Below, in pieces: positions 37,592 through 57,500 of a DNA stretch of 64,000 nt; the first letter of the stretch is position 1, and every line of letters begins with the position of its first letter. A program made the translations under genes and the position numbers. The notes beneath the pieces were generated by a model. It was not told where the DNA came from and searched no databases. It was given only the letters and a program-made list of their open reading frames with translations. The stretch comes from Trypanosoma brucei (taxonomy: Eukaryota), in NCBI GenBank assembly GCA_000002445.1, contig CP000070.1, positions 1,344,001 through 1,408,000 of the forward strand, given 5' to 3'.

Positions 37592-37850
37592 GTGGCTGTG
37601 GAGGACAAACTCTGGACTCTGAATTGCTTTCATTTTACTCCTGCTTTTATTTACCACCGTCGTTTGCAATTTCATCTGTATTTCTCTATTCGAAGTTTCT
37701 TAATTGCAAACAGACGTGTGTGTGCGCGTCCACATGTGCCTGTGGCTCACTTTCTTCCATTTCGTGCACATGTTTCGAACCCGGTGGCAATACATCTTAG
37801 GTTTCGTCACTGTGACACCTTTGTGCTTTTTTGTTTTGTTCTTTGTCAAA

Positions 37851-37922
37851 CTTTTTTCACCTTGTGCATACTTATGCCTTCATTTCTCCTTTTTCTCTCT
37901 TTTTCGTTTCGATCTTTTATGA
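37851..37922 (+). promoter_or_regulatory. Pyrimidine-rich tract upstream of lanosterol synthase: candidate trans-splicing signal
   Basis: cttttttcaccttgtgcatacttatgccttcatttctcctttttctctctttttcgtttcgatcttttatg, ~250 nt upstream of ATG 38167. Confidence 0.35.
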
Positions 37923-38166
37923 TTTAACCGTTAGCTGTTTTTTTTTCACGAGCAGCAGTTGCCGTATCATCCTCCGTTGTTTTGAGTGTTCAGCGTATTT
38001 ATTTTTTTTTTCTGCCGTAATAGAAGGCTTAAGGGGTAGCCAAGACGTTTCATTTTTTACTTTTTATTTTTCCTCGCTAAAAGACCAAGAGAAAAGGAAA
38101 AAGGAACAAGAGAAGGAAAACCCGTCACTCCAGGTTGTTTGTTTATCTTTTCACTCGTTACTAAAA

Positions 38167-40887
38167 ATGATGCTCTATCAGAGAAGGGGCAGGGGCGAGA
38201 TGCACAGACCCGGCATTCGAACCATTGTTGGAAGTGGTAACTCTGCACCCAGTTCACTATGCGCACCGTTCCCGTTTGATAGTGTGATCCCGCCGCCACC
38301 AAGAGGCTTGTTAGAGCGCTTTCTGCGGCGACTGACCTCAACCATCTCATGGGTGGTTTCGTTTCTTCTCGTCGTTTGCTCGATTCCCTTTCTGCTTCTC
38401 ATCCACGCGCTACTGGTCTACTGTGATGGATATAATCGTGAAGTTGTCGCGCGACATCGTAGAAAATGGCTACACCAAACGGTTCCACACGTAAGACCAG
38501 TGAGGGTGGCGCCGTCTCCCAACTTTCCCCTTGAGGGTTGGCATATGCGCTGCGAGGACGGCCGTCAGCGCTGGCACTACGGTCGGCTGCTCAATGTGGA
38601 GGAGGGGAATGAACTCGGGAAGGCCCAGGCTGAGGGATGTCCGTACACCCCTTATGGTGAAGCTGGAAATGCTAATGATGACTTTGAGGATACAGGCGCA
38701 ACAAGGACTGGCCCACGAGGTGGTCCGGACATGCGTGCAGTGAAGGAAGAGCGATGCCGCTTTGTTGAGCGATATCAATTGGGTCTCACAGGCACGGCTC
38801 ATGTAAAGCCTAGGGGATCTGTGGAAGAGGCCATGCGAGCAGGCGCTGAGTTCTTATTGCGCCTACAGCACCCATATTCCGGTCATTGGCCAAATGACTA
38901 TAGCGGGCCCCTATTTCTTACCCCCGGTGTTATCTTTGTTAGGTACATTGTGGCTCGTGGCAACATACGCAATATGTTCCCACCCCATGCAGATCACCAG
39001 CACGAGGGAGACGAGCCGTGCCTCTGTGGAGAAGCAGAGCGACTAGAACTTATACGTTACATACGAAACTATATGAACGAGGACGGTGGCTTTGGTCAAC
39101 ATACTGAGGGACACAGCACCATGCTTGGGACTGTCCTCAATTACGTTGCACTACGACTTATGGGGGTTTCAGATGATGACAGCGACGCGGCTCGCGCTCG
39201 TCAGTGGATCCGTGGTGAAGGCGGTGCTGTTTCCATTCCCACGTGGGGTAAGGTGTGGTTATGTGTCCTTGGTCTGTACGATTGGGACGGCGTTAACCCC
39301 ATTCCACCGGAGTTGTCATTGCTGCCCAACTGGATACCGTTTTCACCGAGCCGCCTGTGGTGTCACAGTCGTGTCGTTTCCATAGCCTTCTCGTACTTGT
39401 ATGGTTTGCGATGGAGGCAGCCCGATAATCTACTTCTTCAATGCCTGCGGTACGAGATTTACCTTGAGCCATATGGAAACATTAAGTGGGCTAAGCATCG
39501 AAGCAACATTTGTGCCAAGGACTGCTATACACCTCTTTCTTCCGTGTACAAAGTTTTCGCCGCCGTTATGAGTTTGTATGAGAAGCGGCCCATCAAATTT
39601 CTTCGCAGGCGGGCGCTGGAGGTAGCATGGACCCATATTGCTTACGATGATGAAAGCACACATTTCATATGCCTTGGGCCGGTGAACAAGGCGTTCGACA
39701 TGCTCATAACGTGGATACGTGAGGGAGAAACTAGTGGAAGGTACCTAAACCACCTTAATCGTCTCGATGATTATTTCTTCATGGGACCTGAAGGGCTTAG
39801 GATGAGTGGTTATAACGGTTCACAATTATGGGACACGTCGTTCGCTGTACAGGCCCTCTGCGCCTGCAACATGGAGTTGTTGTACCCTGAGGAGATGGCC
39901 CTTGCTCATCACTACGTAGATGTTGCGCAGGTGCAGGAGAATCCGGTGGCAGCGACACAGTTTTACCGCCATCGGACGAAAGGTGCGTGGAACTTCAGTA
40001 CACGCCCGCAAGCGTGGCAGGTGTCAGATTGCACAGCCGAAGGGCTTCGTGTATTGCTGCTGCTCCGTCACAAGCCATTTCCTCACCAACGCATTTATGA
40101 CGCTGTGGATCAGATTTTGTCCCTGAGGAATCGAGGCGGCGGGTGGGCTTCTTATGAGCCAACTTGCGCACCCCACTACGTAGAACTTCTCAACTGCTCG
40201 GATGTGTTCAAGGATGTCATGACTGACTACGTCTACACGGAGTGCACAAGCAGTTGTGTGCACACACTCTCACTTTTCCGAGAGCACTTTCCCGACTACC
40301 GGCGGGAGGATGTAGATAGGGCCATTCGCGATGGTGTGAAGTGCATGCTGGCGAACCAGCGGACGGATGGTTCGTATTACGGAAGTTGGGCCGTATGCTT
40401 TACATATGCTGCTTGGCTCTGCGCTAGTGCGCTTCGCATATCTGGTGAGATTTACGGCATGGAGGGAGATCCGACGTGTGTGCGCCTCGTTAACTTTTTG
40501 TTGTCACACCAGAATACGGACGGCGGTTGGGGGGAGGATGTGAGCGCGTGCGCTCGTGGTGTGTGGGTTGATAATCCAAGTGGAAGTCAAGTCGTCAACA
40601 CTGCGTGGGCGGTCATGGCTATCATGGCTGCCTCTGGCGAAGCGAGCTCAACCGAACTGCGCCGCCAGCTTCGTATTCTAAAGGCTGTAAGTGCAGGTAT
40701 TCACTTTATTGTGTCGCGCCAGCTATCAACAGGTGACTGGGCACAAGAGCGAATTAGCGGTGTGTTTAACGGTAACAACCCGATTCACTACCCAGGATAT
40801 AAAAATACCATGCCAGTGTGGGCACTGGGGGTGTACAGGCGCTGGAGTAAAACATACGGTCAACATTTTCCCCGATCGATGGATTAG
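38167..40887 (+). CDS. Lanosterol synthase (2,3-oxidosqualene cyclase, OSC/ERG7 family)
   Basis: First ATG at 38167 inside the longer ORF 37831..40887, giving 906 aa. Class II terpene cyclase signatures: GHWPNDYSGPLFLTPGVI, the catalytic-acid motif VSDCTAEGLRV, multiple QW repeats, and GSWAVCFTYAAWL. The N-terminal ~100 aa extension contains a hydrophobic segment. Confidence 0.9.
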   Translation: MMLYQRRGRGEMHRPGIRTIVGSGNSAPSSLCAPFPFDSVIPPPPRGLLERFLRRLTSTISWVVSFLLVVCSIPFLLLIHALLVYCDGYNREVVARHRRKWLHQTVPHVRPVRVAPSPNFPLEGWHMRCEDGRQRWHYGRLLNVEEGNELGKAQAEGCPYTPYGEAGNANDDFEDTGATRTGPRGGPDMRAVKEERCRFVERYQLGLTGTAHVKPRGSVEEAMRAGAEFLLRLQHPYSGHWPNDYSGPLFLTPGVIFVRYIVARGNIRNMFPPHADHQHEGDEPCLCGEAERLELIRYIRNYMNEDGGFGQHTEGHSTMLGTVLNYVALRLMGVSDDDSDAARARQWIRGEGGAVSIPTWGKVWLCVLGLYDWDGVNPIPPELSLLPNWIPFSPSRLWCHSRVVSIAFSYLYGLRWRQPDNLLLQCLRYEIYLEPYGNIKWAKHRSNICAKDCYTPLSSVYKVFAAVMSLYEKRPIKFLRRRALEVAWTHIAYDDESTHFICLGPVNKAFDMLITWIREGETSGRYLNHLNRLDDYFFMGPEGLRMSGYNGSQLWDTSFAVQALCACNMELLYPEEMALAHHYVDVAQVQENPVAATQFYRHRTKGAWNFSTRPQAWQVSDCTAEGLRVLLLLRHKPFPHQRIYDAVDQILSLRNRGGGWASYEPTCAPHYVELLNCSDVFKDVMTDYVYTECTSSCVHTLSLFREHFPDYRREDVDRAIRDGVKCMLANQRTDGSYYGSWAVCFTYAAWLCASALRISGEIYGMEGDPTCVRLVNFLLSHQNTDGGWGEDVSACARGVWVDNPSGSQVVNTAWAVMAIMAASGEASSTELRRQLRILKAVSAGIHFIVSRQLSTGDWAQERISGVFNGNNPIHYPGYKNTMPVWALGVYRRWSKTYGQHFPRSMD

Positions 40888-42328
40888 CAAGGGGAACGGA
40901 TGCTTGTGAGGATTGGAAGATTACGATACCTTCACAGTCACCACCAATGTAAATGTCACGGGAGAAAGTAACCGTCACGACTTTACTTGCGTGTGTCGGC
41001 GCCTACTTCCGACTTTTACACGGTGCGACGAGGACAACCTGCGTACTGTTGTCAGAAGTCCATTTGCTGCATCAATCCCCTGTCAAATGTTGAAGTGATA
41101 CATGAGGGTGAGGCATCACATGGAAGCAATGTGAAACAAAGTGCAAGTGTTTAAGTAGGTGAAGGAGAATGTGTAGTAGCTTGCCAACTTCTTGTCATGC
41201 AGTTAATCATACATATAAAGTGCCAAAAAGCAGTTGGTTAAGTGGACCTAATTTTCCCTATGATTTTAACTGTCCCCCTTCCATACATTTTTTCTGTTTT
41301 AGTGATGTCACTCGATGGCACCCCGCTTCTGTTATTTGTTCTTCTTGTCTTACGTGTCTCGCGTGTGTGTGCACGTTGTGTGATAACTTTCCTTTCGCCC
41401 ACCCTTCATTTGCCATTAACCCTTCCGGAGTGAAGGCACAATGTTAAGGCGAGTGGAATGCTGGAAAGCAGAAAAAAAAACAGAGAAAAGAAGGAAGAGG
41501 AGAGGGTGCGGAAAGGGAGTGTACGTGTACGTAGGAAACCGATGCGTGGATGTCCGCGTGGCACGGAAGTAGGAGCATCTTTCTTTTTTTTTTGCTACCT
41601 GGTTGCTTGTCTGCGTGTGAAAGTGAAATAGTTTGAAATGTTTCAGTGTAAGTACCCTGCTGACTAAATGTTTGCCATGGATGCAGTGAATCATTGTTAT
41701 TATTATTGTTGCTGCTGCTGCTGACATTGATATTGGTAATGGTATTGTTATATATATATGTATATGTATATATGTATGTATGTATATATATATATTGCAG
41801 CTATGGCAACTCTTTGCGTCCTTATTTTCTTCTTTTTGTCTGTTTGACATTAACATTTTTTGTAACAATCGTAACAGGCTAGGGGTCGCGGTGCCGGCCC
41901 TTGAGATACTTGAAAGTAGTCGTAATAAAGGAGTGGAAAAGGAATAGGAGTAACATAGCGGAAAGGAAGCGGCGTAGGATAGCTGTTTTCATTGCCATTG
42001 GCGCAAGGGAATTCAGCCCTACCTTCTACGCCTTCCTTCCTATTGTTTGACGGAATAGTTTTTTGCGTATAAGCATTGTGCGAGGTAGGGAAACAAGTGT
42101 AAGCTACTTAAGGAAGGGTATAAATATAATAGGAAGGTACCCCCGTTACCTGAAACGAAGTGGGGGAGTGTCTGTACAGGAGTGTTTCTTCGTTCATATA
42201 TATTTTCATATTTATATAGGGAGGGACGAGGAAGTGCGGCGGAGGAAGGCGACACCAACGACAATAGCAAACCGCGAACAGACGCCTCAGTATACACCTT
42301 TGTTGGTTTATTTTCCTTCAGCGTTCGC

Positions 42329-43801
42329 ATGGCCAACTTTAATAAAGTCTCTAGGGCCAATGCCGTCTTGCAGCCAACAGCCCCGGCTACGAAATACGGC
42401 AACAATGGAAAGAATATAAGGTACCATGATGTCGAGAACTTAGGCGAACCATTCAATAATTGCAGGCAGCGGGGCTATGAACGGAACCATATCGCTCCGG
42501 CTCCGCCGGTTTTGGGAAGCGAAGTGAATTACTTCGACAACTCAGCGTCTCCAATGGTAAGTTCAGATCCCGGGGCGAGGCATTGGGGCGCGCGTAACTC
42601 CTATGACTCCCAGTGGGATAATACGTACAAGAGCAGTGGGGCTAGGGCCGCAGCCACAGCTGTCTTCGAGCAAATTGCAGCTGAGGAGCGAACAAGCGAC
42701 GGTACTCAGGACATGCATGGAGAAGTGGCTACAGAGAATTCAACCGAATATCAATCAGACGGATGTGCCGTGGTTGGACACTCCCGGAAGATCCTTAGCA
42801 GCACCGAAGAGTATGTATGTAGGAGGTACTCCGTCTCATCAATCCCGAGACTGGAGGCTTATGATTATTATGAGACGCGGAAAATTTCCCCCGAACGGGC
42901 CCCTCACTTCAGTGCAACAGCGGCACACTCAGATGTGAGAATGCGGAGCCCTAAACCGTCCGTTTCCAGCGGGGGGAAATCCTCGGATAGTATGTTACAG
43001 AGAAGGGGTGAGGCGAGTACATTTCCAAGGGTTGTGGCGAGGAAACTTGACCTGCATGCCACTGAGGAGTGCCAAGGATCGAGTGCTCACAAACAGCTGT
43101 CACCCATGAACGCCTTCGAAGTAGCCAACAAGGCAGAGCGTCAGTCACAAGTGGGACCAACTTGTCCACCCGTTTTAACGCCCTGTCCCTCACATAATAT
43201 GCGTAGGTCTGTTGCCGATGCATCCACGATGACCGAAGGTGTTTCTCGTGAGGCTGTCACTCGCGCGGTACACGGCAACAACTTGACAACGTTGCCTAAC
43301 GGTCATTATGATAATGAATATTTCAACGTTGGGAGGGGAGGGCCGAGATCATCTGCCAACGAATCTGTCGTCAGTCTTTCCACGGTCTCTAATTCCACTT
43401 TGAATCAGCGGCCAGATTCAACTGCATTTGGTGGGTATAGGAACCCAGTGGGCCAACACAATCATTACGTATCACCCAAGTTGTTCCATAACTCAGCCAC
43501 GCAAACGATGGCTTCGAGTGCAAGGCCACCTCTGACACCGCGGTTTAATGAAACACGTTCCCCACCAACAGCACCACCGTATGCCGGATGGGACAACAGT
43601 CCTGGTGGCAGTATGGATAGACCGGCACTAAACGGACGGCCAGCGAATGATGCGATGAGGGTGCCAAGAGTTGGTGCAGCTCCTCAGGAAGTGTGGGCGG
43701 CAAAGTTAAGGCAATTGGATAATGCATACTTGACGAATGGTAACGGCTGGGCCATTCTTCATGAGATTCGACTGTTGCTGGAGGGGCGAAATAGTCGCTA
43801 A
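42329..43801 (+). CDS. Hypothetical protein (~490 aa), low complexity, no recognised domain
   Basis: First ATG (42329) within ORF 42182..43801 on the transcribed strand. Rich in S/N/R/P. Unrecognised. Confidence 0.5.
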   Translation: MANFNKVSRANAVLQPTAPATKYGNNGKNIRYHDVENLGEPFNNCRQRGYERNHIAPAPPVLGSEVNYFDNSASPMVSSDPGARHWGARNSYDSQWDNTYKSSGARAAATAVFEQIAAEERTSDGTQDMHGEVATENSTEYQSDGCAVVGHSRKILSSTEEYVCRRYSVSSIPRLEAYDYYETRKISPERAPHFSATAAHSDVRMRSPKPSVSSGGKSSDSMLQRRGEASTFPRVVARKLDLHATEECQGSSAHKQLSPMNAFEVANKAERQSQVGPTCPPVLTPCPSHNMRRSVADASTMTEGVSREAVTRAVHGNNLTTLPNGHYDNEYFNVGRGGPRSSANESVVSLSTVSNSTLNQRPDSTAFGGYRNPVGQHNHYVSPKLFHNSATQTMASSARPPLTPRFNETRSPPTAPPYAGWDNSPGGSMDRPALNGRPANDAMRVPRVGAAPQEVWAAKLRQLDNAYLTNGNGWAILHEIRLLLEGRNSR

Positions 43802-45539: not shown

Positions 45540-47732
45540 ATGGGCCATTGTTGTGCCACTCAAACGAAACAAGCGCGGCTCCTACCATCAAACAATGCAT
45601 CACTTAATGCTCCGGCTGAAGTTCCCGGAGGGTCATTAGCGGCACAAACGAGGCCATCGGATGGGCAAATTAACGCCCCTACCGGCGGGGCTTCCCATGG
45701 CGTGGCGGCGGAGAGCGCTTCATCCAAATTTACGGTGAGTCCGGTGATAGGGGACCAGTCGGATTACACAACAACGATTGGGTTAGAACGTCTTGTTCCC
45801 GTAAACCGTAAGTCTGGATCACAACTTCCAGTTAATGCACATCTACGGTTAGGTTCGGACAACAGAGCGGATAGCGTTTGTGTTTTTGACAATGGGGATG
45901 ACGACGGTCGTTTCTTGACAGCACGAAGCCCCTTGTTGCTTTCGTCAATGACGACACCACGAGTGAAGTTTGTGTCGGGGACTCCAGGTACTTTTGACAC
46001 CAATGGTGGGGCTCCACCATCAGGTAGAGGGTTTCAGTCGTGTCTAAGCAGCCAATGGGACGAGTCAGTGGGAAGCAACAAACTCAACTCCTGTCATAGT
46101 ATGGTGATGAATGAAAGTGTGAACAATAGCGTAGAGGCGTATTTTGGCAGTCTAACTGCGTGCGTTCCTCCAACGGAGGTGCCACCTTCGATGTTACCGT
46201 TAGTATCAATAACGGCGTCGTCCTCGTCTTCAACCGTGTCATCACCGTTTTCGTCACTGGCAGTGCACCGCAGGGAGCCGTCGTCATTATTCGTGAATGA
46301 CAAGTCTCCTGTACAGTCTTTGGGAGTTTCATCATTCGTGACGGCCCTGTCGCCGAGCGTATCACCGCGACCGTTGCATAATGAGGCACCCCCACAATCG
46401 CATGCGGACGCTTTAGGTGCACCAACAGCGACATCAGTAAGCCACTCAAGGGGGGATCTGTCACTTGGTACCGCTATAGCACCGTCAAGAGCAACGTCGC
46501 CATCATGTTACATGGAAAATGCGTCGTTTGCAACGGCCTTGTCACTATCTGAGTCACTACAAGCGTCGCATTCCGTATTATCTTCAGTTTCGTTCCCCGG
46601 TGTAGGGGTGCAATCAGCTGCGGCATTGATTCCTCACTCCAGAGGAACTTCTTCTTTTGCGTCTGCGGTTTCACCATCAGCAGCGGTGACAACTGCGCGC
46701 TCCGCGCGAACTACGCCGTCCTTTGTGGTGACCATCTTGCCGTCAGAGGCCACAACTACTCCGCGTATGGCATTTAAAAGTGCAAGGAGCAGTAACAAAA
46801 TTGGTTCCACTACAGTCACCGGTGGCGATTTGATGTCGTGTCGTAGTCTTTCTGAAATCAGCACCTCATTGAGTGACAAAATACATAATATGAGTGGAGA
46901 GGTAGCGAGGAGTGCTTCTGAGGCTCCACAGCGTCTTGTGGTGAGGAAACGCGTTACGTCTCTAACCAATATTTCTTCTTCTTCGTATTCGCGGTTAACG
47001 GAAAAAGAGCGTGCCAGCACTCAGGAAGGTGTGACAAATTCCCCGTTAATTATGGCTGAATCATTGCCGGACCAGACTAATGGTGTTGTTATTTCGCTCT
47101 CCCCACCGGAGGACCATTCCAGTATTTTTGGAGGCAACGGCGGCGGTGGCTCCAGGGAGGTGTCGTTCGTTAGTTCTTCACCTAAAGCGGAGGGGATGTG
47201 GGTTCAATCTGGTAAGCATGGCAAAAAAAAGGCGGGCACAGTGCTGAGTTTTTTTACCCCAGATCCGGCAGTTACGCAGTTGTCGGAACATGCTGCGAAT
47301 ACCTCTTTGACATCACATATGTTGACTCGACAAAAGCCCAAAATGCTTAGTTACTTCGGCAGGCATTCGGATCCTCCGTTCTCATCTGTGAATACATTAC
47401 GCCAACGGAACGTCATGGCACGGTCGGTAGGGGCGGTTGGAGGGTTAGGTACCCTTGACGCAAGTTATAAAAAGGTGTTGGGTGATACTCAGAAGTTGTT
47501 CTCGTCGTTACCTGCGCTACCCACATACACTAAGAGGGATCACATCCCACGGAGGCGAGTGTTTGATTTAGGAACCCCCGGTAGCGCGTCAAAATCGAGG
47601 AAAAGCCCCTCACCGGAAGGCTCACAAATGATTTCCCAGATGTCCAGTTCGATTAATGGTCATGCGGCCTCAGGTGTTTCATCACCCGACTCGAAGCACA
47701 AAGAGGACGGAAAGGCACACTGTCAATCATAA
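45540..47732 (+). CDS. Ser-rich hypothetical protein (730 aa) with a predicted N-terminal dual-acylation signal (MGHCC)
   Basis: ATG ORF. Begins MGHCCATQ, with Gly2 for N-myristoylation and adjacent Cys4/Cys5 for palmitoylation, as in trypanosome flagellar membrane proteins. Long S/T/A/V-rich low-complexity body. Confidence 0.6.
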   Translation: MGHCCATQTKQARLLPSNNASLNAPAEVPGGSLAAQTRPSDGQINAPTGGASHGVAAESASSKFTVSPVIGDQSDYTTTIGLERLVPVNRKSGSQLPVNAHLRLGSDNRADSVCVFDNGDDDGRFLTARSPLLLSSMTTPRVKFVSGTPGTFDTNGGAPPSGRGFQSCLSSQWDESVGSNKLNSCHSMVMNESVNNSVEAYFGSLTACVPPTEVPPSMLPLVSITASSSSSTVSSPFSSLAVHRREPSSLFVNDKSPVQSLGVSSFVTALSPSVSPRPLHNEAPPQSHADALGAPTATSVSHSRGDLSLGTAIAPSRATSPSCYMENASFATALSLSESLQASHSVLSSVSFPGVGVQSAAALIPHSRGTSSFASAVSPSAAVTTARSARTTPSFVVTILPSEATTTPRMAFKSARSSNKIGSTTVTGGDLMSCRSLSEISTSLSDKIHNMSGEVARSASEAPQRLVVRKRVTSLTNISSSSYSRLTEKERASTQEGVTNSPLIMAESLPDQTNGVVISLSPPEDHSSIFGGNGGGGSREVSFVSSSPKAEGMWVQSGKHGKKKAGTVLSFFTPDPAVTQLSEHAANTSLTSHMLTRQKPKMLSYFGRHSDPPFSSVNTLRQRNVMARSVGAVGGLGTLDASYKKVLGDTQKLFSSLPALPTYTKRDHIPRRRVFDLGTPGSASKSRKSPSPEGSQMISQMSSSINGHAASGVSSPDSKHKEDGKAHCQS

Positions 47733-48656
47733 GGAATAAAGTGCTGTTTGTTCCCTTTTATTATTATTGTTATTATTGTTATGGTGGATGATGTCAGCGT
47801 TTTGGTCTCATGGAAGCGTGCTGCGGAGATGTCGCTTTCCTTTGTCATTCGATCGGGCGTAGAGGTAAGGGAAGGGTAATGTAGGAGGAGGAGGAGGGGG
47901 GGGGGAACGGCGGTAAATGTGGACAAGAGGAAGTTGGCGAGTGGGTGGGAGAGGGGAAAAACAACAACAACAATCGTACACGTGTGGATGGCGCCGCGTT
48001 TGCCCATATGAATATTATTGCTGATTTCTTTTACAGCTGGTTGCATTGTCCCCTTCCCATTCACCTCCTTCTTCATTAACGCCTAATGCACGCATGTGTA
48101 TGAGAGGGCGTGCGTGTGTATTCAATACGGTGGTGGAGTGGTATAATGCTGATGGGTTGCCGGTCGAACTTTATTTCTAAATGCTGGTTTCTTTCATTTG
48201 CTTTTTGCGTCGTTTATTTGTATATATATTTGTGTGTGTATGTGTGTTAGACTTTACGTCTCGACGTTGTTTTTCCCACTTTCCTCAGAGGGCAAGATAT
48301 ATTCTTCTCTTTGTCATTACTTGAGACTAGGGAATTTAAAACAATCAGTGCTTGTCCACAAGTTTATTTTTTTTCTACTTTTGGATGCGTGTACTGTTCC
48401 CTCTCCCACATTAATTCACCAAGTATTGTACACATTGTGTCGGTTTTAACAAAGAAAAAAAATGACTGCTTCGTCCCATCCAGTTGTACACTGATTACTT
48501 TTATTAGGTGTCGGAGTAACTTCACCCTTTCCCCATTCACTTCTTCGCACATTTTCGCCCAATTTGTATCTTACCACTGTGGATTCCTCATCTCAAAACT
48601 TGATACAAACCGAACAAAATAATAATATAGAACAGTAGCTGAAGAGGACAAAGGGA

Positions 48657-49238
48657 ATGGGTACCACCGCCAGTACGGATTCCGCAGACTCACCATTTTC
48701 TGTACGGAGCGTGGACTCTTCTGGCGGTGGAGGGTGGCGGCAGGAGGATCCCGAAAGGTTTCGAAAGTACATGCATCTCAAGTCACAAGCGGATCAGTGG
48801 CGCCAACGGCACGGCCACACGCCGGGGGCCACAAGGGGCGAACTCACGAAGAACCTCATCGAAGAAGTGTACGAAGAGGATTTCGAGTCCGTGGATCATG
48901 TGCAGTCAATGCGGTTGCCACCCATGGTGCTGAAGGAGATGAAAGATGCCGTGGCGAATGAGGCGGAGAGGCGCTGTGCGGAGACTGAAAAGGTCATGGC
49001 GCGTTGCCTACAGGATAAAATGTGGACTTCGTGGAAGTGCCAGAAGGAGAGGGATGCACTTTATCAGTGTGTGGCAGATAGGAAAGAAGACAATGAACTC
49101 CTAATGGCGTACCGTTGGAAGTATAATTTGGGCACTTTCCATGGGGAACTGATTGGGCGCAACAATATGATGCGGCGCATATGGAAGGAGCATTTCCCTG
49201 ACCGTGATTTACCACACCCATGGGTAAAGGACGCTTAG
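48657..49238 (+). CDS. Twin Cx9C (CHCH-domain) protein with an N-myristoylation motif (MGTTAS); candidate NDUFB7/B18-like or Mic19-like intermembrane-space protein
   Basis: 193 aa. N-terminus MGTTASTD (Gly2, Ser6). CAETEKVMARC-x10-CQKERDALYQC is C-x9-C / 10-aa linker / C-x9-C. The second helix resembles NDUFB7 (CKQERHDWDYC). The overall MG...CHCH layout also matches CHCHD3/Mic19. Confidence 0.6.
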   Translation: MGTTASTDSADSPFSVRSVDSSGGGGWRQEDPERFRKYMHLKSQADQWRQRHGHTPGATRGELTKNLIEEVYEEDFESVDHVQSMRLPPMVLKEMKDAVANEAERRCAETEKVMARCLQDKMWTSWKCQKERDALYQCVADRKEDNELLMAYRWKYNLGTFHGELIGRNNMMRRIWKEHFPDRDLPHPWVKDA

Positions 49239-49861
49239 TAAAGACTTCGGTTCTTCAAGGTTGCCGACAACTGTTTGGTTAAACCCTTGTGCGTGTTTGC
49301 GAGGGAGGAAGACCAATGGGACTAACACTTGGCACACGACAAACTGGTTACTGGTGGGGCCCTTCTTTTGTGCGTACGGTTATGCGTCGTGTTTTGCTGT
49401 TAATGGTCGTATCGATATATTGTTTTAGTGTGGTTCTTCGGCCTTGTGTGATCGTTAGTCTCTACTTGTAGTTTAGGGGAGGCTGTCAAAAGAATAAAAT
49501 TACCTCTCACTTCTTAATGATACCCATATATATATATATACACTAATTTGTTTGCGTTTGTGAGTCACCAGTTCCTCTGTTGCTTAGGGTACTGTTCTTT
49601 TTCCTCCCTTCCCCTTTATCACATATTCGCACTTTTGTCTTTACTGCCGGATTCTTCGCTCTTTTGGGCTATTTGATCGATTTTGATGCCAGATGCGTGT
49701 TCGTGTTCTGTTTTTCGATTGTTAACAGCATTGAGGAGCGGAAAGTAACCAAGTTCACCTGTATAGGTGACGAGCACAAAAGGGGTTCGAGGTGGGGCGT
49801 AAAATCAAGTGATCCCGAGTAGGTTTTACTGTTGGTGTGCCTGCGTAACTTGCAGGTACCA

Positions 49862-50446
49862 ATGATTCAGATTATTGCGCCGAGGGGCCCCCTGCAGGAA
49901 ATGCTGCTGTTGGAATTGCAGGGCAAAGTTGTCATACCTCCCAAGTTACTGGAGGAGGAGCGGGAGAGGCAGAGAATTCCCAACAGCAGTGAAGAGGAAG
50001 TGAAGGCATGCTCTCAAGTTACTGGTGGGAAGAGGCTAAGGGAAGACGGTGAATGTGGCGTTAATGTTGATACCAATCAGGTGGTGGAGGTGCCGTTGGG
50101 CTGCGTAGTGTGGGACTCGCGCAATGAGACGCGCTGTTCGCTTCAAATTGGGACGGTTGAAGTCAGTGGCAGTTATGGGAAGAGACGAGAGCCCCTTCTT
50201 GTGTTGAAGCGCTGTGTTGTAGGGGACAAAACTGCTGATGCGGAAGGTGCGGTGGCATGTGAATACTCAGAATCGAGTGGTTCTCAGTGCTGTTTGCTAC
50301 AGGAATGGCTGCAAGAGCATCCCGAGGAACTCACATTGGATGCCACTGTGAGGGGCGCAACAGTCCCCAGAAAAGTGTACGAGCTGGTTGGTGTTGTGGA
50401 GCGTTACATTCACTTGAACTCAAAGCCCCTCCGTAGGTTCGTGTGA
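49862..50446 (+). CDS. Small protein (194 aa) resembling Ctf8 (chromosome transmission fidelity 8, Ctf18-RFC subunit)
   Basis: First ATG at 49862 (the ORF track start at 49832 is TTG). [21 protein letters not shown] parallels the human CHTF8 N-terminus [32 protein letters not shown]...[15 protein letters not shown] parallels LGDLHYTT...[39 protein letters not shown] parallels YLVTALIKDKILFKTRPKP. The human sequence is recalled from memory. Confidence 0.5.
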   Translation: [194 protein letters not shown]

Positions 50447-51553
50447 GTTTTTCTTCAAACGTGCAAAAAAAAAATGTGACAGCGCGCCCTCTTCCACTCA
50501 CAGGAGGCGGGAATTACGTTCCATTTTGTATTCTCCGTTCGGCGATGCTTCGGTCGTATTTGTTGAGTCCTGCATAGAGTGGGGAAGGGAGATGCAACAG
50601 GGAACAAAGGGCATGTGTGAAACCGTGTTTGTCTTACCCCTCGCTTCCGCTAATTCAAGTGTGCTAGTTGCCCGAAAGATTGGCAGAAACTTTCCAGCCA
50701 TTGTTAGCATTTGATAACCTTTCCGTCAGAAAAAAAAAAGACATTTCTTTTTGACGGTTGGTTGCCGAAGAAAAGTGTGAACCAAGTCTGGCCACGTTGT
50801 GGGACGGGGTTCTGCCGCATTCTTCTTTACGTACATCAGCAGGTTATATATGCCTTGGGCCCGAATGGAAAGCATACCAACAACCCAAATACCTTCCATT
50901 TGTGGATGTGCAGGTGCGTGGAAGGGAGCGAGGGTGTAATAACATTGTGGAAGGTTTGTTCGAGCACTCGTTCTTCACCTCTGCCAGTTTTTCCTTCCAC
51001 AGTTACATACCATTTGCTTCTTTCTCCTCCTTCCTCATTATTACTGTCACTGTCACTGCTACCACGGTAACGTTATTTACCTTGTTTTCAATTGCTTGTT
51101 TAAGCACTCACGCACGGAAGAAGGCCCAAACCGTCAGTGTGCGTGTGTGGTCTAAGTTCTACAAAAGTGCCGGTAGTGAGGGGTAGGTAAAACATATTTT
51201 TTTTTTTTTGGGGGGGGGGAGTAGCAGCCGAGCACCGGGTGTGTTGGAAGTGTAGGGACAGTGTGGCTAGTAGGCAAGTAGTAAGTTAGACATAGAATAA
51301 AAAGGGGTAAAACAAAGTGGAACACTAGCGCCATACACATTGTGTTGGGGAAAGTAGGACAAGGCTGGAGAAGCGAGACGCGAGTGGTGGGAACTATTAG
51401 GTTAGTGAGTGACTTTAGGAGTGTCTTCCGGGGAGAGAATACCTGGAAGCGTAGGGTCGATATAAAGAAGTTTAAATCCCCTTAGTTCGGCTAGTGAAGA
51501 GTAGGGAAAGTAATTTGAGGAGTCAGGGAAGCTTAGTGGAGGGGACTTGCTGC

Positions 51554-54500
51554 ATGCGACCGACATCGTACTTGGCACATGCAGCGCCGTCTACTACTTC
51601 CTCCTCTGCTGCTGCGGTTGCAACTGCGTTGGGCAAAACCAAAACACGACTTAGTCCCCAACAGTCGTCCTTCACTTCGCTGACGCCGTCACACCTAAGA
51701 CATGGTGGACCACAGGCAGCGGAGCAGCTCATGCGGTTGGGCAGAGTGTTTGTGCCAGTTACATATTTGCCCGGTTCGTCTGGTTATCAAACCGCTCAAA
51801 CCCCTGGAGTTTCGCCTACACTACGCCGCAGCCGAAGGTACGAGCCTTACGGTTCTCTGCTACAGATGTATATGGAGCGCGGTTTCACTGACCTGGATGC
51901 CCTATTGTTCCACCCGGAGGCACCTTCTCCGATGGAGCTGTTGTTAAGCGTCCTGCGACATCGCACGGCGTGCCTGCAACTCACACAGAAGGCACTTACA
52001 GCGACTATCAGTCGGCCACGTCACACATCTTCTGCGGGAGCGGCCTCATATACCCTACAAACAGTTTACCACATTCTGAAGAACCACTGTCCATATCTGT
52101 ATGACACCGCCAGTGTTAGGGTATTGCTCTGCCAGGCGTTACTGTGCGAAAGGTTATTTAGTGATGCGATTGAGTTGCTACAGGGGATGCCCGATTCGTG
52201 GATTACGCCTGGGTTGTGGCAGGTCGTGATGGAAGCTGCAGCTGATGGTAAAGTCCCGCATTCACCCCTTCTGTGGAAACTTCTAACGTTGTCACCTGCA
52301 AAAACCCCAGGTGAAGGTCGTGTTGTTAGGACCGGTCAGCGGGTACCTGAGCAACTTCGAAGGGGAATGTCAGCTCGTGCAGCCGAAGTGGTGTCGAGAT
52401 CATTTGTAAACAGAGGAGAGAGCATGGATGAGGCAGCAAAGGCACATGGGGTGCACCAAAACAGCGACACAGTAACCTTCTCATCTTTTGAGGTGCGTCC
52501 GTTGTCGATCGTACAAATAACGCGTGGGGGTAATCAACTGGAATGGTGCCATCTCAGTACCTCAGAAGTTGGTTACGCTGAACAACACTACCGAGCTCTT
52601 CGTAACCTTCGAGGATGGGGTCACGGCGTGCTACGACTGGGAAGGGGTGACCACCTGATGGAAGGCGTTGTTTATGGTCTTGATGCCTTTCTTGCCTCCC
52701 GGCTTATGTTGCGCGCTAATGTGTCTTTCTTTGGCCAAGCGTCCCCGTTGATAGCCCTGCATATTCTTAGGCGATACATACGTACCTGTCACGCCCTGCG
52801 GAAAACTCCCGCACGCTCATCAGTGGTGAAGGGGACGGGTAGTGACGGGACCAGTGAATTAGGCACAAACAGCGACTGGCTGAAGTATCATCAGCCCTCG
52901 TCTACTAGTGGATCTCCAGGTGTGAGCACGAGTGATACACAAGCGTCTGATATTGAGGACTTCATTCACCCTTCACCATTTTTACTGTTCTTCAAAGTCG
53001 TCCGTGAAACCCGTGATGTACTTCCCGGGGGCGGTGGGACCCTTGCATCAGCCGGGCATTCTGGGACCTCGGGTGGAGTACCTACAGCTGGGCTGCCGAT
53101 GATACATTGGGAACTGGTGTGGCGATACTTCCAAACTCTCAACCGTGAGTGCCCCAACTGGCATACCATCATCCCAGAGAAGGCTGGTGACTTGAGTCAG
53201 TATGTTATTGACGTCCTTTGTCGTGGAGCTGATCCGTGGATGACGCTTAATGTTGCGCGTGCCGTTTCTTCACGCCATATTGTTGACGGTTTGGACATGT
53301 CGCTGTGGCTTCTCCACCGACTTGATCCGTCGCACCACATGGAAGAAGCACGCGATGTAACGCGGAAGGTGTTCCGCTGGCTCTTGACTGATGTCGGCGT
53401 GCACTTGCTGCCGCAGTTGCACCACAATCTTATCCCCGCTGCGAGGGTGTTGGTGCGCTTAGGGTTACAGGATGAGCTACGGCAACTATATAATGGCGTG
53501 CTAGATAACGTTTATTTGTTTGCCGAGGATTTCCGCGCAGAGTTTCTACACGTGATGATGGATTTGGTTTGCCCTTCGTGCAGCTCTATTCTATCTGCGC
53601 AGGACGTCTATGCGGAGCGTGTCTGTTCCATCTGTCTTACGATCATACCTGCAAAAGATGCGGGGTCATTGCCTAGCTTTCAGCTTTCGAGCGAACATAT
53701 CTCCCGTTTACGAGAGAAGCGCAAGGTTGTGCGACTTAGTGAGCGAAAGAGGTTGCATGAGAGCATCTGCTGTTGGTCAAAGCGAGGCGAGAATAGTCGT
53801 GAAACAGCTGCAGGAGCAACCAACGTTGGGAAGCATGCGGCGTCACCGGTCTTTCCTCCACTGGATGCTAGCAGCGTGTTTAAAAAGGAAATACTCTCCG
53901 ACACGGCTCCTCTACTTCCCGGGGTACCCGTGGCGGCGCGAAATGTGTTACTTCTTCCAGGAGGAGGTGGGGCAGACGGCGCGGGCAGTTGTGTGTCAGA
54001 AGGAGGTGGTCCCTCTGCCTCGTTTGATGTTTATGCAGCCATGGAAGAGTCATCGCACCGTTTGCAGCTACAAGAGGCAGCCCGTCGTTACGCACTGGCT
54101 CAGCGCGGTGTTGTGTTACCTGCGCGCCATTCTGCTGCCTTTCCATCCCCCGTTCTATCAACATCTTCCGTGTCGACTTCATCGGCGCATTTTTCTCCAG
54201 AGAAACAACGGCAGGGTTTCATGATACCCTCAATGTGTGTCGACGGGCCCTGGACTTGTGTATGGTGCCACGAACAAAACACGGGGTGGGGTTCCCGCAC
54301 ACAATGCGGAGCCTGTGGTGCCGAAACAGGACCCAGCGCTCTGTGGCGGCATTTTGCATACGCAACATCGACAGGGGATATTATGGAAGAAGTACGCGCT
54401 CGTGTGGCTAACTCCGCGGAACGTCCTGTAGACGCAGTGGTGGCGGGTTACCTGTTGATGGTGTACCGTCGTACGTTTCTGCTGAGGGCTACACCGCACG

Positions 54501-57500
54501 ATGCGGAGCGAATAGAACAGCTGATTCAGCGGCTCTGCCAACTACATGAGAGAGTGCTGGCAGGTTACACTTACATGCGCTTCGTTCCTGCCCGTGCACG
54601 CAGCAAGGGAAGTACCCTGTTTGCGCTTGCGCATCTCTTTGGTTGTACCGATGCAGCCTATGCGGGATTGACCACACAACAATTAAGGCGCGATGAGGAC
54701 ACGTTCTTTCAAACCATATTCACACCCGCAACCTGCAAGGTTTGTTTTGGGCAGCATGCGTGGAAGGCTTGCCCGATTATAACGCGGGATTTCTCTACAA
54801 CGAAGCGCCAATCCATTACAATGTCTCCGAAAGAAAAGCAGGAAGCAGTGCTGCAGCAACTTAGGCAGGCAGTGGAGGCTGCGGTGCAACATGGGGCGGA
54901 GAGCAGCCGTCTCGTCGTCGGTGCATACACGGCTTTTGTGAAATCACCCTACCGCGAGCTTTTTTCGGAGACACACAGCCGGGACGTGAATCGCCTGTCC
55001 ATGCTGTTGAGTCGGTACCAACAGTTCCGTCGTGCAGCCTTCGTCCTCTGCCACATTCCGTTACACCTTCGCGACGATGGGGCGTATATGGCTATGGTTC
55101 CATATTTTAACGTTCCTGTGGAGGACGCGCGGGAGTTATTGAGGAAACGGAGTCCCTTGGGTGTTGCGGATGGGACACATCCCAACTTTGTTCAGGTTGC
55201 TGTAACGTGCTGCATGTGTCTTGACGAGCGTCATGCTTCGTTCGAATGCCCGAGACTACTGAAGTGGATTGGAGAAATTGAGGAGCTGAGTGCATCGCAA
55301 AAAAACGGATCGGCAACTTCAGGAGCCCTTGTCGATGTCGTGGCCGCACAGGAGCTGTCCAAGCGATTGCGGGCGCAAGTAGACGGGTGGACCTCTGCGG
55401 GTCCTGAGAGACTACATGCATTTTACCGTTTCCTCCTCCAACGTATAGACGACTTCCAGAAGGACCCGTACGACACATTGCAAACCGACGGTGACGAGCA
55501 TGGTCATCGCCAAGTTGACTCTTGTGTAGTGGGTTCACCACTGAACATGTTGCAACTGCGGAGGCTCGACATGGACGACCCTATTGTCTATGCCATTAAT
55601 AAAGCTATCAGTAAGCTCGCGCTTGCTAAACAGGAAAAGAGTGCTTATCGGTTATATGCGAGGTCTCCCGTGGTTTTCGTGTCCAGTGGGGTAACCTCCA
55701 CAATGCTTCGAATGGCTGGCTACTCTGAAAAAGGTATCCGTACACTAAGTCACAATCACGTGGACGGTAGTGGAAGCTCACAAACATCACTATCTTCATC
55801 TTTGTCTGCGTCAGATGAATCATCAACATTAGGTGTTTCTACCGAAGGTGCACGTTCGGCGGCTGTGCCGATGCGAAATTGTTGCCTTTTGTGCTTTGAC
55901 AGCGAGCACACGTACTTCGACTGCCCAGAATTAATTGCACAACCGACTACTGCAGCTAAACTTGAATATGTAGTTGTGCACGTCGGTGGCATCCGAAGCG
56001 TGTTGGATGGCGTTCGGGCTGCCGCAGCGTACGTTTATCATACATACAACCTGGGACAGCTCACGAGTGATTTGCTTCGTGCACACCCCTCGTTAGTTCG
56101 TTCGCTTCTTCGGCTTGTCCGACGTTGCTTTGCTTGTGGTCTTGTTGGCTCCGGCGTCCGCATCCTGCGGCGTCTCCCTGTGGAAATGGTTCCACCCATA
56201 TCGCCCTATACGGACCTTTGGCGTGCCGCCGGTTTGGGAGAGGAGGTTGTCATCAGTCGACGAGCGCAGTTGCAGGCCCTGTTTGCTGCAGAAGGCTTGG
56301 AGCCGCGCATTGAAACTCCACCCGCTCGCCAGACGTACTCCAACAGGTTTGTTTCCGCTTTGAGTCATGTGCTTCACGATGATCTCTGTCGGCACTGCTA
56401 CCAGCACGGTCACTCACTTGCCACCTGTAGCGTATTCCATGCAGAAGTGAGTTTCGGACGGGATTACGTAGCGGCTTATCGTATGAGTATGATGTCCGAG
56501 CAGCTAGACGACGACTGGCGCGACGCCTACCTTCTGAAACTTGTTGACTTTTTCCTCATGCATAAGGTTCTTATGCCGTACCATATTGTTGGGGTCACGA
56601 ATGCGCTGAACGCGATCGCGGCCATGTGGAGCTTCCGTGGTGAGCCTGGCATCGCGATACGGCATCTACTGAACATTCCACCCGCGTACCGCAGACGACA
56701 GGCGTTCGCGTACATATTACAAGCAGTGGGCGTACCAGTAGACGAAGCCAAGCGCGTTCTCGCTAATGTTTACTTTTCTCCAAGTGAGTTGTCATCCTCG
56801 AATAAACCAAGTGGTAGCTCAGCTTCTGCCTCTGCCTCTGCCTCTGCTGGTTCCGGTTCCGGTTCTGGTGCTGAAAGCGGCAGTGCCGTGGCACAACACC
56901 TTTTGATGCCTAAACCTGCCATTCGTGATGTGGCGATGACGGCTGTATTTAATCAGTTTCCCGACGCACTTGCTGCGTTGGAAGGGAGTGAAGGACGCAT
57001 GGAGGCAATACGCCGCCGAAACGCAACACAGAAGATAACGAAGGGTTCCAAGGCTGAAGGGGGGAATATGAAGACTACCTCGGTGGGAGGCGCAGCGCGT
57101 ATGGCAGAATCCTCGTTGGGGGAAGAACCATCAGTACCGAGTGTGTCTCTCTCACGCCGCCCGGTGCAAAGTGGCGATATCACGACAGTTCGTGAAAACT
57201 TTGACCCGGTCCTCACAGAATTGGAGCTAGCAGTGGGTATGAAACTTGGAAGTCGACACGTACTCTTTACAAGCGCAGTTGACATTCTCGCTGCTGTCGT
57301 TGCCCCGAAGGAAACTGAGGGTGGCAGCGGGAAGGTACAGCAGCCGGCGGTGACAACCACAGTCGTTGTCCCACCACAGGCAGCTTCCCCTCCACCTTCA
57401 GAAAATCCCGCGTCGAAGTTGTCGCCAGAATCCACGGTGGCCATCCCACGGAGCGATGCCTGTGGTCATCCTCACACACGGGAGGAACCTGAAATTGTTA

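What the first reader, a model, noticed from the sequence alone, without database searches (positions are those of the whole stretch)
48657..49238. Twin-Cx9C protein with an N-myristoylation motif resembling both NDUFB7 (complex I B18) and MICOS Mic19/CHCHD3
The N-terminus is MGTTAS, a good N-myristoylation consensus with Gly2 and Ser6. The C-terminal half has a perfect twin Cx9C helix-loop-helix: CAETEKVMARC-x10-CQKERDALYQC. NDUFB7 and Mic19 are the two classic proteins combining an N-terminal myristoylation signal with a CHCH domain. The second helix resembles NDUFB7 (CKQERHDWDYC), while the overall length resembles Mic19. Kinetoplastid MICOS and complex I are both highly divergent, so placing this subunit matters for either complex.
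Basis: partly seen in the sequence, partly recalled or inferred. Interest (0 to 1): 0.55.

Follow-up and report, generated by a model that had tools for sequence, protein, structure and literature searches.

The report
Lipid-anchored twin-Cx9C mitochondrial protein of kinetoplastids
This is the annotated Trypanosoma brucei gene Tb927.7.5260, a small mitochondrial intermembrane-space protein with two disulfide-forming Cx9C pairs and a fatty-acid anchor signal; it is neither the complex I subunit NDUFB7 nor the cristae protein Mic19, and its partner is still unknown.

Summary
Window 48657-49238 (+) encodes a 193-aa protein that starts MGTTAS and carries CAETEKVMARC-x10-CQKERDALYQC. It is T. brucei Tb927.7.5260 (UniProt Q57ZG3), annotated "Cmc1-like, putative".

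- **Conservation:** all four cysteines and the 10-residue loop are kept in 74 of 74 homologues. These span all Kinetoplastea. None was found outside them.
- **Lipid anchor:** 63 of 74 start with MG. The T. cruzi orthologue was captured with azidomyristate, and an N-myristoyltransferase inhibitor reduced its capture in a dose-dependent way.
- **Import:** the T. brucei protein is in the published ATOM40-dependent mitochondrial importome.

- **Not NDUFB7:** kinetoplastids have a separate genuine NDUFB7 (Tb927.9.11660). It was found by mass spectrometry in complex I bands. It passes the Pfam NDUF_B7 threshold, starts MTEYL (no Gly2), and shows no similarity to this family.
- **Not Mic19:** the Mic19 domain is absent, and the protein is not a listed MICOS subunit.
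- **Cmc1 versus NDUFB7-like:** at sequence level the CHCH core ties between the two. Only the T. brucei and T. cruzi members pass the Cmc1 threshold.

The best reading is a kinetoplastid-specific, myristoyl-tethered intermembrane-space CHCH protein, most likely a respiratory-chain assembly factor. That function is inferred. Interest is modest.

The parts
48657..49238 (+). Coding sequence of Tb927.7.5260 (Q57ZG3), 193 aa plus stop codon.
   Evidence: ORF listing and sequence. Exact match to NCBI/UniRef records of T. brucei. The gene ID and UniProt accession are linked in the Peikert et al. supplements.
48636..48638 (+). In-frame TAG stop upstream of the start codon. It fixes the MG methionine as the first possible start.
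   Evidence: Read directly from the sequence.
48520..48595 (+). Pyrimidine-rich tract followed by AG dinucleotides just upstream of the ATG. Inferred to be the trans-splice acceptor signal; not verified.
   Evidence: Sequence. The role is an inference from general trypanosome mRNA processing.
48657..48677 (+). N-myristoylation signal MGTTAST (Gly2, small residue at position 3, Ser6).
   Evidence: 63 of 74 homologues start with MG and position 6 is S, A or T in 55. The T. cruzi orthologue Q4E2Z0 was enriched with azidomyristate and is sensitive to DDD85646.
48678..48845 (+). Variable N-terminal linker (residues 8-63), predicted disordered. It contains one short conserved motif, Y38-A39-x-L41-x-S43.
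   Evidence: Length and sequence vary in alignment A1. AF2 pLDDT is below 50 for residues 1-27 and 55-62.
48846..48932 (+). Family-specific conserved helix before the CHCH (residues 64-92: N66, D75, D80, R86, P88, P89, V91).
   Evidence: Invariant and near-invariant columns in A1 and A2. Predicted helix 67-84.
48975..49070 (+). Twin Cx9C (CHCH) helix-loop-helix: C107-x9-C117, 10-residue loop, C128-x9-C138.
   Evidence: Sequence. Kept in 74 of 74 homologues with identical spacing. pLDDT 91-96. Weak Pfam Cmc1 and NDUF_B7 matches.
49101..49226 (+). Family-specific conserved C-terminal tail (residues 149-190: R153-W154-K155, G159, G163-E164, R168, M172, W176, E178, P181, H187, W189). No counterpart was found in Cmc1, NDUFB7 or Mic19.
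   Evidence: Invariant columns in A2. Predicted long helix 146-179. No match in Pfam or PDB for this part.

Best explanation
The ORF is the T. brucei gene Tb927.7.5260. It belongs to a protein family confined to Kinetoplastea.

**How it most likely works, step by step:**
1. It is made in the cytosol. The initiator Met is removed and Gly2 is N-myristoylated by NMT. This is shown for the T. cruzi orthologue and inferred for T. brucei.
2. It enters mitochondria through the ATOM40 pore. This is shown in T. brucei.
3. It is trapped in the intermembrane space when the two Cx9C pairs form two disulfides that staple a helix-loop-helix. This is inferred. The Erv1 knock-down trend points the same way but is not significant.
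4. The myristate holds it on a membrane surface facing the intermembrane space. This is inferred.
5. The strongly conserved flanking helices (residues 64-92 and 149-190) bind a partner. This is inferred.

**What it is not.** It is not the NDUFB7 orthologue and not Mic19.

**Most likely role.** Its CHCH core lies between the Cmc1 and NDUFB7 families. The most likely role is a Cmc1-like, membrane-tethered assembly or stabilising factor for a respiratory complex, with cytochrome c oxidase first among the candidates. This last step is the weakest.

**Confidence by part:**
- About 0.85 for [quoted passage not shown].
- About 0.3 for the cytochrome c oxidase assembly role.
- The overall figure of 0.55 is a blend of the two.
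For: **Identity:** exact match to Q57ZG3 / Tb927.7.5260, 22.68 kDa.

**Conservation:** four invariant Cys and a fixed 10-residue loop in 74 of 74 members; MG start in 63 of 74. Members come from Papus (Prokinetoplastina), Trypanoplasma, Bodo and trypanosomatids. Only 17 hits were found among 1.84 billion representative proteins, and none bridges to other eukaryotes.

**Myristoylation, T. cruzi Q4E2Z0:**
- LFQ log2 difference 10.2, FDR-corrected p 5.8e-4, and SILAC-positive.
- With DDD85646 the log2 ratios are -1.49, -3.25 and -1.68, all flagged significant.
- The study assigns such proteins as N-myristoylated.

**Import:** ATOM40 RNAi ratio 0.64, p 0.011, flagged as importome. ERV1 RNAi ratio 0.55, p 0.195.

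**Not NDUFB7:**

**Not Mic19:**

**Cmc1-like:**
- Pfam Cmc1 scores 23.4 bits (T. brucei) and 24.6 bits (T. cruzi), above the 22-bit cut-off.
- The matches cover model positions about 1-60 of 70 in all 11 members scanned singly. Most NDUF_B7 matches cover only the second helix.
- All 30 members of alignment A1 match Cmc1 at E <= 0.1.

**Other points:**
- No member is present in any solved structure, including the T. brucei ATP synthase and mitoribosome and Euglena complex I. This fits a transient factor.
- No homologue named from Phytomonas was returned. Phytomonas lacks complexes III and IV (my own knowledge).
Against: - The Cmc1 assignment is marginal. Nine of the 11 members scanned singly fall below the Cmc1 cut-off, and six of the 11 score higher on NDUF_B7.
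- hhalign is slightly better to NDUFB7 (36%, P 3.9e-4) than to vertebrate CMC1 (21%, P 1.1e-3).
- The profile search of PDB finds only NDUFB7 and NDUFA8 chains, weakly (E 0.015-0.12). Cmc1 does not appear to be represented there.
- Diplonema has a differently built protein assigned as Cmc1, so kinetoplastids may have another true Cmc1.
- There is no direct evidence of myristoylation in T. brucei. The L. donovani orthologue was predicted but not detected, and no T. brucei homologue was matched in the T. cruzi paper's cross-species table.
- The Erv1 dependence is not significant.
- The Phytomonas absence assumes that its proteome is in the searched database, which I could not verify.
Confidence: 0.55

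Rival explanations
1. It is an NDUFB7 paralogue that works with complex I, as a second B18-like accessory subunit or an assembly factor. It would sit on the intermembrane-space face of the membrane arm and be anchored by its myristate, as mammalian B18 is.
For: The family profile's best matches in PDB are plant NDUFB7 chains (E 0.015-0.035). hhalign to NDUFB7 gives 36%, P 3.9e-4, ungapped through the 10-residue loop with a shared WKC-x2-ER-x3-Y-x-C motif. Six of 11 members score higher on Pfam NDUF_B7 than on Cmc1. Some databases auto-name orthologues NDUFB7. Mammalian B18 is N-myristoylated (own knowledge).
Against: No member reaches the NDUF_B7 cut-off. The helix-1 signature RD-x-C-x-H-x2-IP is absent. 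The genuine kinetoplastid NDUFB7 is another gene and is the one annotated in complex I bands of Phytomonas and Novymonas. There is no similarity between the two kinetoplastid proteins (P 0.37). The published complex I subunit lists do not include Tb927.7.5260. Euglena complex I (8iuf) has a canonical NDUFB7 and no chain matching this family.
Confidence: 0.15
2. It is a functional analogue of Mic19. It would be a myristoylated CHCH protein that bridges the inner and outer membranes at crista junctions, or that assists intermembrane-space import in organisms lacking Mia40.
For: The combination of an N-terminal myristoylation signal and a CHCH domain is shared with Mic19/CHCHD3. The N-termini also look alike (MGTTAST here, MGGTTST in CHCHD3). 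Kinetoplastids have no recognisable Mic19 in their published MICOS. Myristate-aided import of Mic19 is known from other systems (own knowledge).
Against: There is no MIC19_MIC25 domain, whereas human CHCHD3 scores 129 bits on it. hhalign to CHCHD3 gives 2%, limited to the generic hairpin. The CHCH is not C-terminal. The protein is not among the nine named T. brucei MICOS subunits.
Confidence: 0.1
3. It is a stable, kinetoplastid-specific supernumerary subunit of complex III or IV, or of another inner-membrane complex such as TIM. It would not be a transient assembly factor.
Against: No chain of any solved euglenozoan complex matches. Kinetoplastid complexes III and IV may not be solved, so this is weak. 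I found no published subunit list that contains the gene; a full-text search for the gene ID returned nothing.
Confidence: 0.15

Closest known systems
Cmc1 / CMC1 (COX assembly mitochondrial protein, Pfam PF08583)
   Same: Both have a twin Cx9C hairpin in an intermembrane-space protein. The Pfam match runs over most of the model (positions about 1-60 of 70) and is above the cut-off for the T. brucei and T. cruzi members. The second helix, CQKERDALYQC, shares 6 of 11 residues with human CRKENSALKEC. TriTrypDB and UniProt already use this name.
   Different: Nine of 11 members fall below the cut-off. hhalign to vertebrate CMC1 gives only 21%. The loop is 10 residues, against 11 in vertebrates. 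The extra conserved Cys of vertebrate CMC1 are absent. This family adds an N-myristoylation signal, a long variable N-terminal linker and two conserved flanking segments. No functional data exist.
NDUFB7 / B18 subunit of complex I (Pfam PF05676)
   Same: Twin Cx9C with a 10-residue loop. Shared W-K-C-x2-E-R-x3-Y-x-C motif in helix 2. Weak profile similarity. Mammalian B18 is also N-myristoylated (own knowledge).
   Different: All members score below the Pfam cut-off. The family lacks the RD-x-C-x-H-x2-IP helix-1 signature that is invariant in alignment A4. It is not the orthologue, because that role is filled by Tb927.9.11660.
Kinetoplastid NDUFB7 (Tb927.9.11660; Novymonas NESM_000182200; Phytomonas W6L7W6)
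   Same: It is also a twin Cx9C protein of about 22-26 kDa in the ATOM40 importome of the same organisms.
   Different: It scores 36.5-37.4 bits on NDUF_B7, has a 13-residue loop and starts MTEYL without Gly2. It was found in complex I bands. It shows no similarity to the window family.
Mic19 / CHCHD3 (MICOS)
   Same: An N-terminal MG-x3-S/T myristoylation signal combined with a CHCH domain, and a similar overall length.
   Different: The window family has no MIC19_MIC25 domain, and its CHCH is not at the C-terminus. hhalign gives 2%. It is not part of the published T. brucei MICOS.

Membership tests
NDUFB7 (complex I B18, PF05676) | Score at or above the Pfam gathering threshold (26 bits). 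| tested here: not met
   13.9-24.4 bits in 11 members scanned singly. The genuine kinetoplastid NDUFB7 scores 36.5-37.4 bits.
NDUFB7 (complex I B18, PF05676) | Helix-1 signature R-D-x-C-A/x-H-x-L/x-I-P-x3-C. | tested here: not met
   R56, D57, C59, A60, H61, L63, I64 and L66 are invariant in alignment A4, and the signature is present in kinetoplastid NDUFB7. The window family has R-R-C-x-E-x-E-K-x-M-A-R-C.
NDUFB7 (complex I B18, PF05676) | Being the single orthologue that is physically part of complex I. | tested here: not met
   Tb927.9.11660 orthologues are the proteins annotated as NDUFB7 in complex I bands. In Novymonas the two are different genes, NESM_000182200 and NESM_000209400. hhalign between the two families gives P 0.37.
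Cmc1 (PF08583) | Score at or above the Pfam gathering threshold (22 bits). | tested here: inconclusive
   T. brucei scores 23.4 and T. cruzi 24.6. The other nine scanned singly score 16.1-21.4.
Cmc1 (PF08583) | Profile-profile similarity to bona fide CMC1 proteins. | tested here: inconclusive
   hhalign of A2 against 10 vertebrate CMC1 gives probability 21%, P 1.1e-3, over 57 columns. The control, CMC1 against NDUFB7, gives P 0.089.
Cmc1 (PF08583) | A role in COX1-module or copper-dependent cytochrome c oxidase biogenesis. | not testable with these tools
   I found no functional data for Tb927.7.5260. A full-text search for the ID returned no paper.
Mic19 / CHCHD3 (MICOS) | MIC19_MIC25 (PF05300) domain N-terminal to the CHCH. 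| tested here: not met
   No hit in any member at E <= 10, 0.1 or 1. The positive control, human CHCHD3, scores 129 bits.
Mic19 / CHCHD3 (MICOS) | CHCH domain at the extreme C-terminus, and membership of purified MICOS. | tested here: not met
   51-120 residues follow the last Cys (about 54-66 in most members), and the tail is conserved. T. brucei MICOS is listed as MIC10-1, 10-2, 16, 17, 20, 24, 32, 34 and 40.
Twin Cx9C intermembrane-space proteins (oxidative-folding substrates) | Two Cx9C pairs, conserved, in a helix-loop-helix. | tested here: met
   74 of 74 members. AF2 predicts helices 108-119 and 125-143 with pLDDT above 90.
Twin Cx9C intermembrane-space proteins (oxidative-folding substrates) | Mitochondrial import, and dependence on Erv1. 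| tested here: inconclusive
   Published data: ATOM40 RNAi ratio 0.64, p 0.011 (import shown). ERV1 RNAi ratio 0.55, p 0.195, two peptides (not significant).
N-myristoylated proteins (NMT substrates) | Gly2 with a permissive position 3 and S/T/A at position 6. | tested here: met
   The T. brucei protein starts MGTTAST. 63 of 74 members start with MG, and position 6 is S, A or T in 55 of those 63.
N-myristoylated proteins (NMT substrates) | Experimental labelling with a myristate analogue that is sensitive to NMT inhibition. | tested here: inconclusive
   Met for the T. cruzi orthologue Q4E2Z0. The L. donovani orthologue LdBPK_060700.1 was predicted but not detected. The T. brucei dataset is not held, and no T. 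brucei homologue was matched in the T. cruzi paper's cross-species table.

The most novel reading that the evidence does not exclude
This family may be a third, independently evolved lineage of myristoylated CHCH proteins, beside metazoan NDUFB7 and opisthokont Mic19. It would be specific to Kinetoplastea. The lipid would aid import and retention in an intermembrane space that has no Mia40. The two family-specific conserved segments would dock it to a kinetoplastid-specific partner. That would make it a new assembly or organising factor, not an orthologue of any named CHCH protein.
Probability: 0.25. Interest if true: 0.6.

Novelty: new variant of a known kind. Interest (0 to 1): 0.35.

Why it matters
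**Annotation.** Public annotation of this orthogroup is inconsistent. It is named "Cmc1-like", "COX assembly mitochondrial protein", "NDUFB7" or "hypothetical" depending on the species. This work shows that the NDUFB7 label is wrong, because kinetoplastids carry a separate, genuine and non-myristoylated NDUFB7.

**Linking two datasets.** An "uncharacterised" hit of the T. cruzi N-myristoylome is the orthologue of a mitochondrial intermembrane-space CHCH protein of the T. brucei importome. N-myristoylated mitochondrial proteins are few. How a lipidated protein is imported and oxidised in an organism without Mia40 is an open question, and this protein offers a concrete substrate to test it.

**Drug-target angle.** NMT is a validated drug target in these parasites, so mitochondrial NMT substrates bear on the mode of action of NMT inhibitors.

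**Limit.** The gene is already annotated and its function remains inferred, so the finding is useful but not striking.

Tried and rejected
- **Bridging homologues.** The exhaustive profile search of 1.84 billion representatives and the word-indexed profile search found no sequence linking this family to canonical Cmc1 or NDUFB7.
- **Human CMC1 search.** The listed top 120 of 386 hits were all vertebrate sequences, so the CMC1 profile used for hhalign is narrow.
- **Papers not held.** The T. brucei myristoylome (Wright 2016), the respiratome (Acestor 2011) and the sub-mitochondrial protein map (Pyrih 2023) could not be read.
- **kDNA-loss proteome.** The supplement was cut when stored and does not reach the gene.
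- **Literature by ID.** Full-text searches for the gene and protein IDs found no paper that discusses the gene.
- **Weak Pfam RGI1 match.** It scored 17 bits against a cut-off of 25, in 4 of 30 members. I treated it as noise.
- **Genomic neighbours.** A Ctf8-domain protein and an oxidosqualene cyclase lie nearby. They give no functional clue, because trypanosome polycistrons are not operons.

Full report
**1. The observation**

Window 48657-49238 (+) is an open reading frame of 193 codons plus a stop.
- The product starts MGTTASTD.
- It contains CAETEKVMARC (107-117), a 10-residue loop, then CQKERDALYQC (128-138).
- An in-frame TAG lies seven codons upstream of the ATG, so the MG methionine is the first possible start.
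- A pyrimidine-rich tract followed by AG dinucleotides lies just upstream. This fits a trans-splice acceptor, but that is an inference.
- Every large ORF in the window is on the + strand, as expected for a trypanosome polycistron.

**2. Identity**

The protein is identical to NCBI and UniRef records of Trypanosoma brucei, UniProt Q57ZG3. The supplements of Peikert et al. 2017 (PMC5436138) link Q57ZG3 to Tb927.7.5260. [quoted passage not shown] My calculated mass is 22,680 Da, and there is no hydrophobic segment. A full-text search found no paper that discusses the gene.

**3. The family**

Searches of 5.8 billion clustered proteins returned 42 homologues with the single sequence and 71 with a profile. 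All 71 had E <= 3e-35, and nothing weaker appeared up to E = 10. An exhaustive HMM search of 1.84 billion representatives found only 17 hits.

Named members come from these groups:
- many Trypanosoma, Leishmania and other trypanosomatids;
- Bodo saltans;
- Trypanoplasma borreli;
- the prokinetoplastid Papus ankaliazontas.

A record filed under the alveolate Colponema is 62% identical to the T. brucei protein. It is probably contamination from kinetoplastid prey. No member is named from euglenids, diplonemids, Phytomonas or Perkinsela. None of the twin Cx9C proteins listed for Diplonema has this motif.

All 74 full or near-full members keep the four cysteines with exactly 10 residues between the pairs. 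The conserved part is much larger than a CHCH hairpin. It runs from residue 64 to 190 and includes an upstream helix and a 40-residue tail with invariant R153, W154, K155, G159, G163, E164, R168, M172, W176, E178, P181, H187 and W189. AF2 predicts an all-helical core with pLDDT 86-96 across the block means for residues 91-150, and a disordered N-terminal 60 residues.

**4. N-myristoylation**

63 of 74 members start with MG, and three more have MG at the same position under over-long gene models. Position 3 is A, S, G, T, N, V or Q. Position 6 is S in 51, A in 3, T in 1 and V in 8. Position 7 is K in 40.

The T. cruzi orthologue Q4E2Z0 (Tc00.1047053508175.39, 184 aa) appears in the T. cruzi N-myristoylome study (PMC4974623):
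- It was enriched with azidomyristate in the label-free experiment (log2 difference 10.2, FDR-corrected p 5.8e-4) and in SILAC.
- With the NMT inhibitor DDD85646 its three log2 ratios are -1.49, -3.25 and -1.68, all flagged significant.
- Because -1.68 and -1.49 add up to about -3.25, I read these as a dose-dependent loss at 12.5 and 50 uM.
- The paper treats proteins of this kind as bona fide N-myristoylated and lists this one as uncharacterised.

In L. donovani the orthologue LdBPK_060700.1 is predicted ("high" by Myristoylator, "twilight" by the NMT predictor) but was not quantified. The T. brucei dataset is not held. The T. cruzi paper's cross-species table matched no true T. brucei homologue. 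Lipidation is therefore shown in one orthologue and inferred here.

**5. Mitochondrial import**

In T. brucei the protein falls to 0.64 of control on ATOM40 knock-down (p 0.011) and is flagged as part of the importome. On ERV1 knock-down it falls to 0.55, but with two peptides and p 0.195.

**6. Is it NDUFB7? No.**

The supporting similarity is weak:
- Pfam NDUF_B7 gives 13.9-24.4 bits in 11 members scanned singly, all below the 26-bit cut-off.
- A family profile finds plant NDUFB7 chains in PDB only weakly (E 0.015-0.035).
- hhalign to a small NDUFB7 alignment gives 36% probability.

Against it, Cermakova et al. 2021 (PMC8312217) assign NDUFB7 to Tb927.9.11660. Their mass-spectrometry tables annotate its orthologues in complex I bands: Phytomonas W6L7W6 and Novymonas NESM_000182200, both 225 aa. 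The Novymonas member of the window family is a different gene, NESM_000209400.

I translated the partial NDUFB7 sequences printed in their supplement, patching single-base errors from machine reading. These proteins:
- start MTEYL, without Gly2;
- carry the RD-x-C-x-H-x2-IP signature;
- have a 13-residue loop, as do the motif positions 68-78 and 92-102 reported for Tb927.9.11660;
- score 36.5-37.4 bits on NDUF_B7;
- align to canonical NDUFB7 with 94% probability;
- show no similarity to the window family (P 0.37).

Euglena complex I (8iuf) also has a canonical NDUFB7. Human NDUFB7 recognises it (E 1.3e-5), but the window family's profile does not.

**7. Is it Mic19? No.**

- No member hits MIC19_MIC25.
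- hhalign of the family to CHCHD3 gives 2%, over the generic hairpin only.
- The CHCH is followed by a conserved tail instead of ending the protein.
- The published T. brucei MICOS comprises MIC10-1, 10-2, 16, 17, 20, 24, 32, 34 and 40.

**8. Is it Cmc1? Possibly, but unproven.**

- The T. brucei and T. cruzi proteins pass the Cmc1 cut-off (23.4 and 24.6 against 22). The nine other members scanned do not.
- Cmc1 matches cover most of the model. Most NDUF_B7 matches cover only the second helix.
- hhalign to ten vertebrate CMC1 sequences gives 21% (P 1.1e-3).
- The control, CMC1 against NDUFB7, gives P 0.089.

The family therefore lies between the two and is closer to each than they are to one another. 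Diplonema's assigned Cmc1 looks different, so a separate kinetoplastid Cmc1 cannot be excluded.

**9. Most likely mechanism**

| Step | Status |
|---|---|
| Conserved CHCH | shown |
| Conserved Gly2 | shown |
| Lipidation | shown in the T. cruzi orthologue |
| ATOM40-dependent import | shown in T. brucei |
| Oxidative trapping in the intermembrane space | inferred |
| Membrane tethering by the myristate | inferred |
| Partner binding through the two family-specific segments | inferred |

The partner is unknown. I rank a Cmc1-like role in cytochrome c oxidase biogenesis first, for three reasons: the threshold-passing Pfam hits, the absence from all solved euglenozoan complexes, and the apparent lack of a Phytomonas homologue. 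All three arguments are weak. The rivals are a complex I-associated NDUFB7 paralogue, a Mic19-like role, and a stable lineage-specific subunit of complex III or IV.

**10. Verdict**

The feature is real and conserved, and the gene is already annotated. The family is best called a kinetoplastid-specific, N-myristoylated Cmc1/NDUFB7-like CHCH protein: a new variant of a known kind. Interest is modest (0.35).

Noticed in passing
not in window (T. brucei Tb927.9.11660 and orthologues): The genuine kinetoplastid NDUFB7 starts MTEYL, so it cannot be N-myristoylated, unlike mammalian B18. It has a 13-residue loop between its Cx9C pairs instead of the canonical 10.
   Followed up: partly
not in window (Phytomonas W6L8F4, PMC8312217 supplement file 5): In the P. 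serpens complex I table, an uncharacterised protein of 194 aa and 22.77 kDa sits next to NDUFB7, with most of its intensity in the same sample. Its size is almost identical to Tb927.7.5260 (193 aa, 22.68 kDa). No Phytomonas homologue was returned by the searches, and I could not read its sequence.
   Followed up: no
window 49832-50446 (+): The next ORF downstream has a Ctf8 domain (Pfam 34.1 bits, E 4e-08), which is a sister-chromatid cohesion factor. The listed TTG start is only the ORF finder's. The real start is probably an internal ATG.
   Followed up: no
window 37831-40887 (+): This ORF carries the squalene-hopene cyclase N- and C-terminal domains (E 7e-42 and 3e-39). It is the oxidosqualene (lanosterol) cyclase of the sterol pathway.
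   Followed up: no
window 51494-57760, 45540-47732, 42182-43801 and 58736-61030 (+): Four large ORFs (2088, 730, 539 and 764 aa) have no Pfam match at E <= 0.001. All large ORFs of the window lie on the + strand.
   Followed up: no
P0062 (EukProt EP00744, filed as Colponema vietnamica): A protein 62% identical to the T. brucei one is filed under an alveolate predator. It is most likely contamination of that transcriptome by kinetoplastid prey.
   Followed up: partly
family members (8 sequences, e.g. P0050, P0052, P0070, P0073, P0075, P0077, P0078): A divergent environmental subgroup keeps Gly2 but has Val at position 6 (MGTIAVKP, MGVISVKP, MGTANVTP). Val is a poor fit to the usual NMT preference, so lipidation may not be universal in the family.
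   Followed up: no
window 48657-49238, residues 69-178: There is a weak Pfam match to fungal RGI1 (respiratory growth induced protein 1): 17.2 bits against a 25-bit cut-off, in 4 of 30 members. It covers 110 residues including the flanks. It is probably noise but was not excluded.
   Followed up: no
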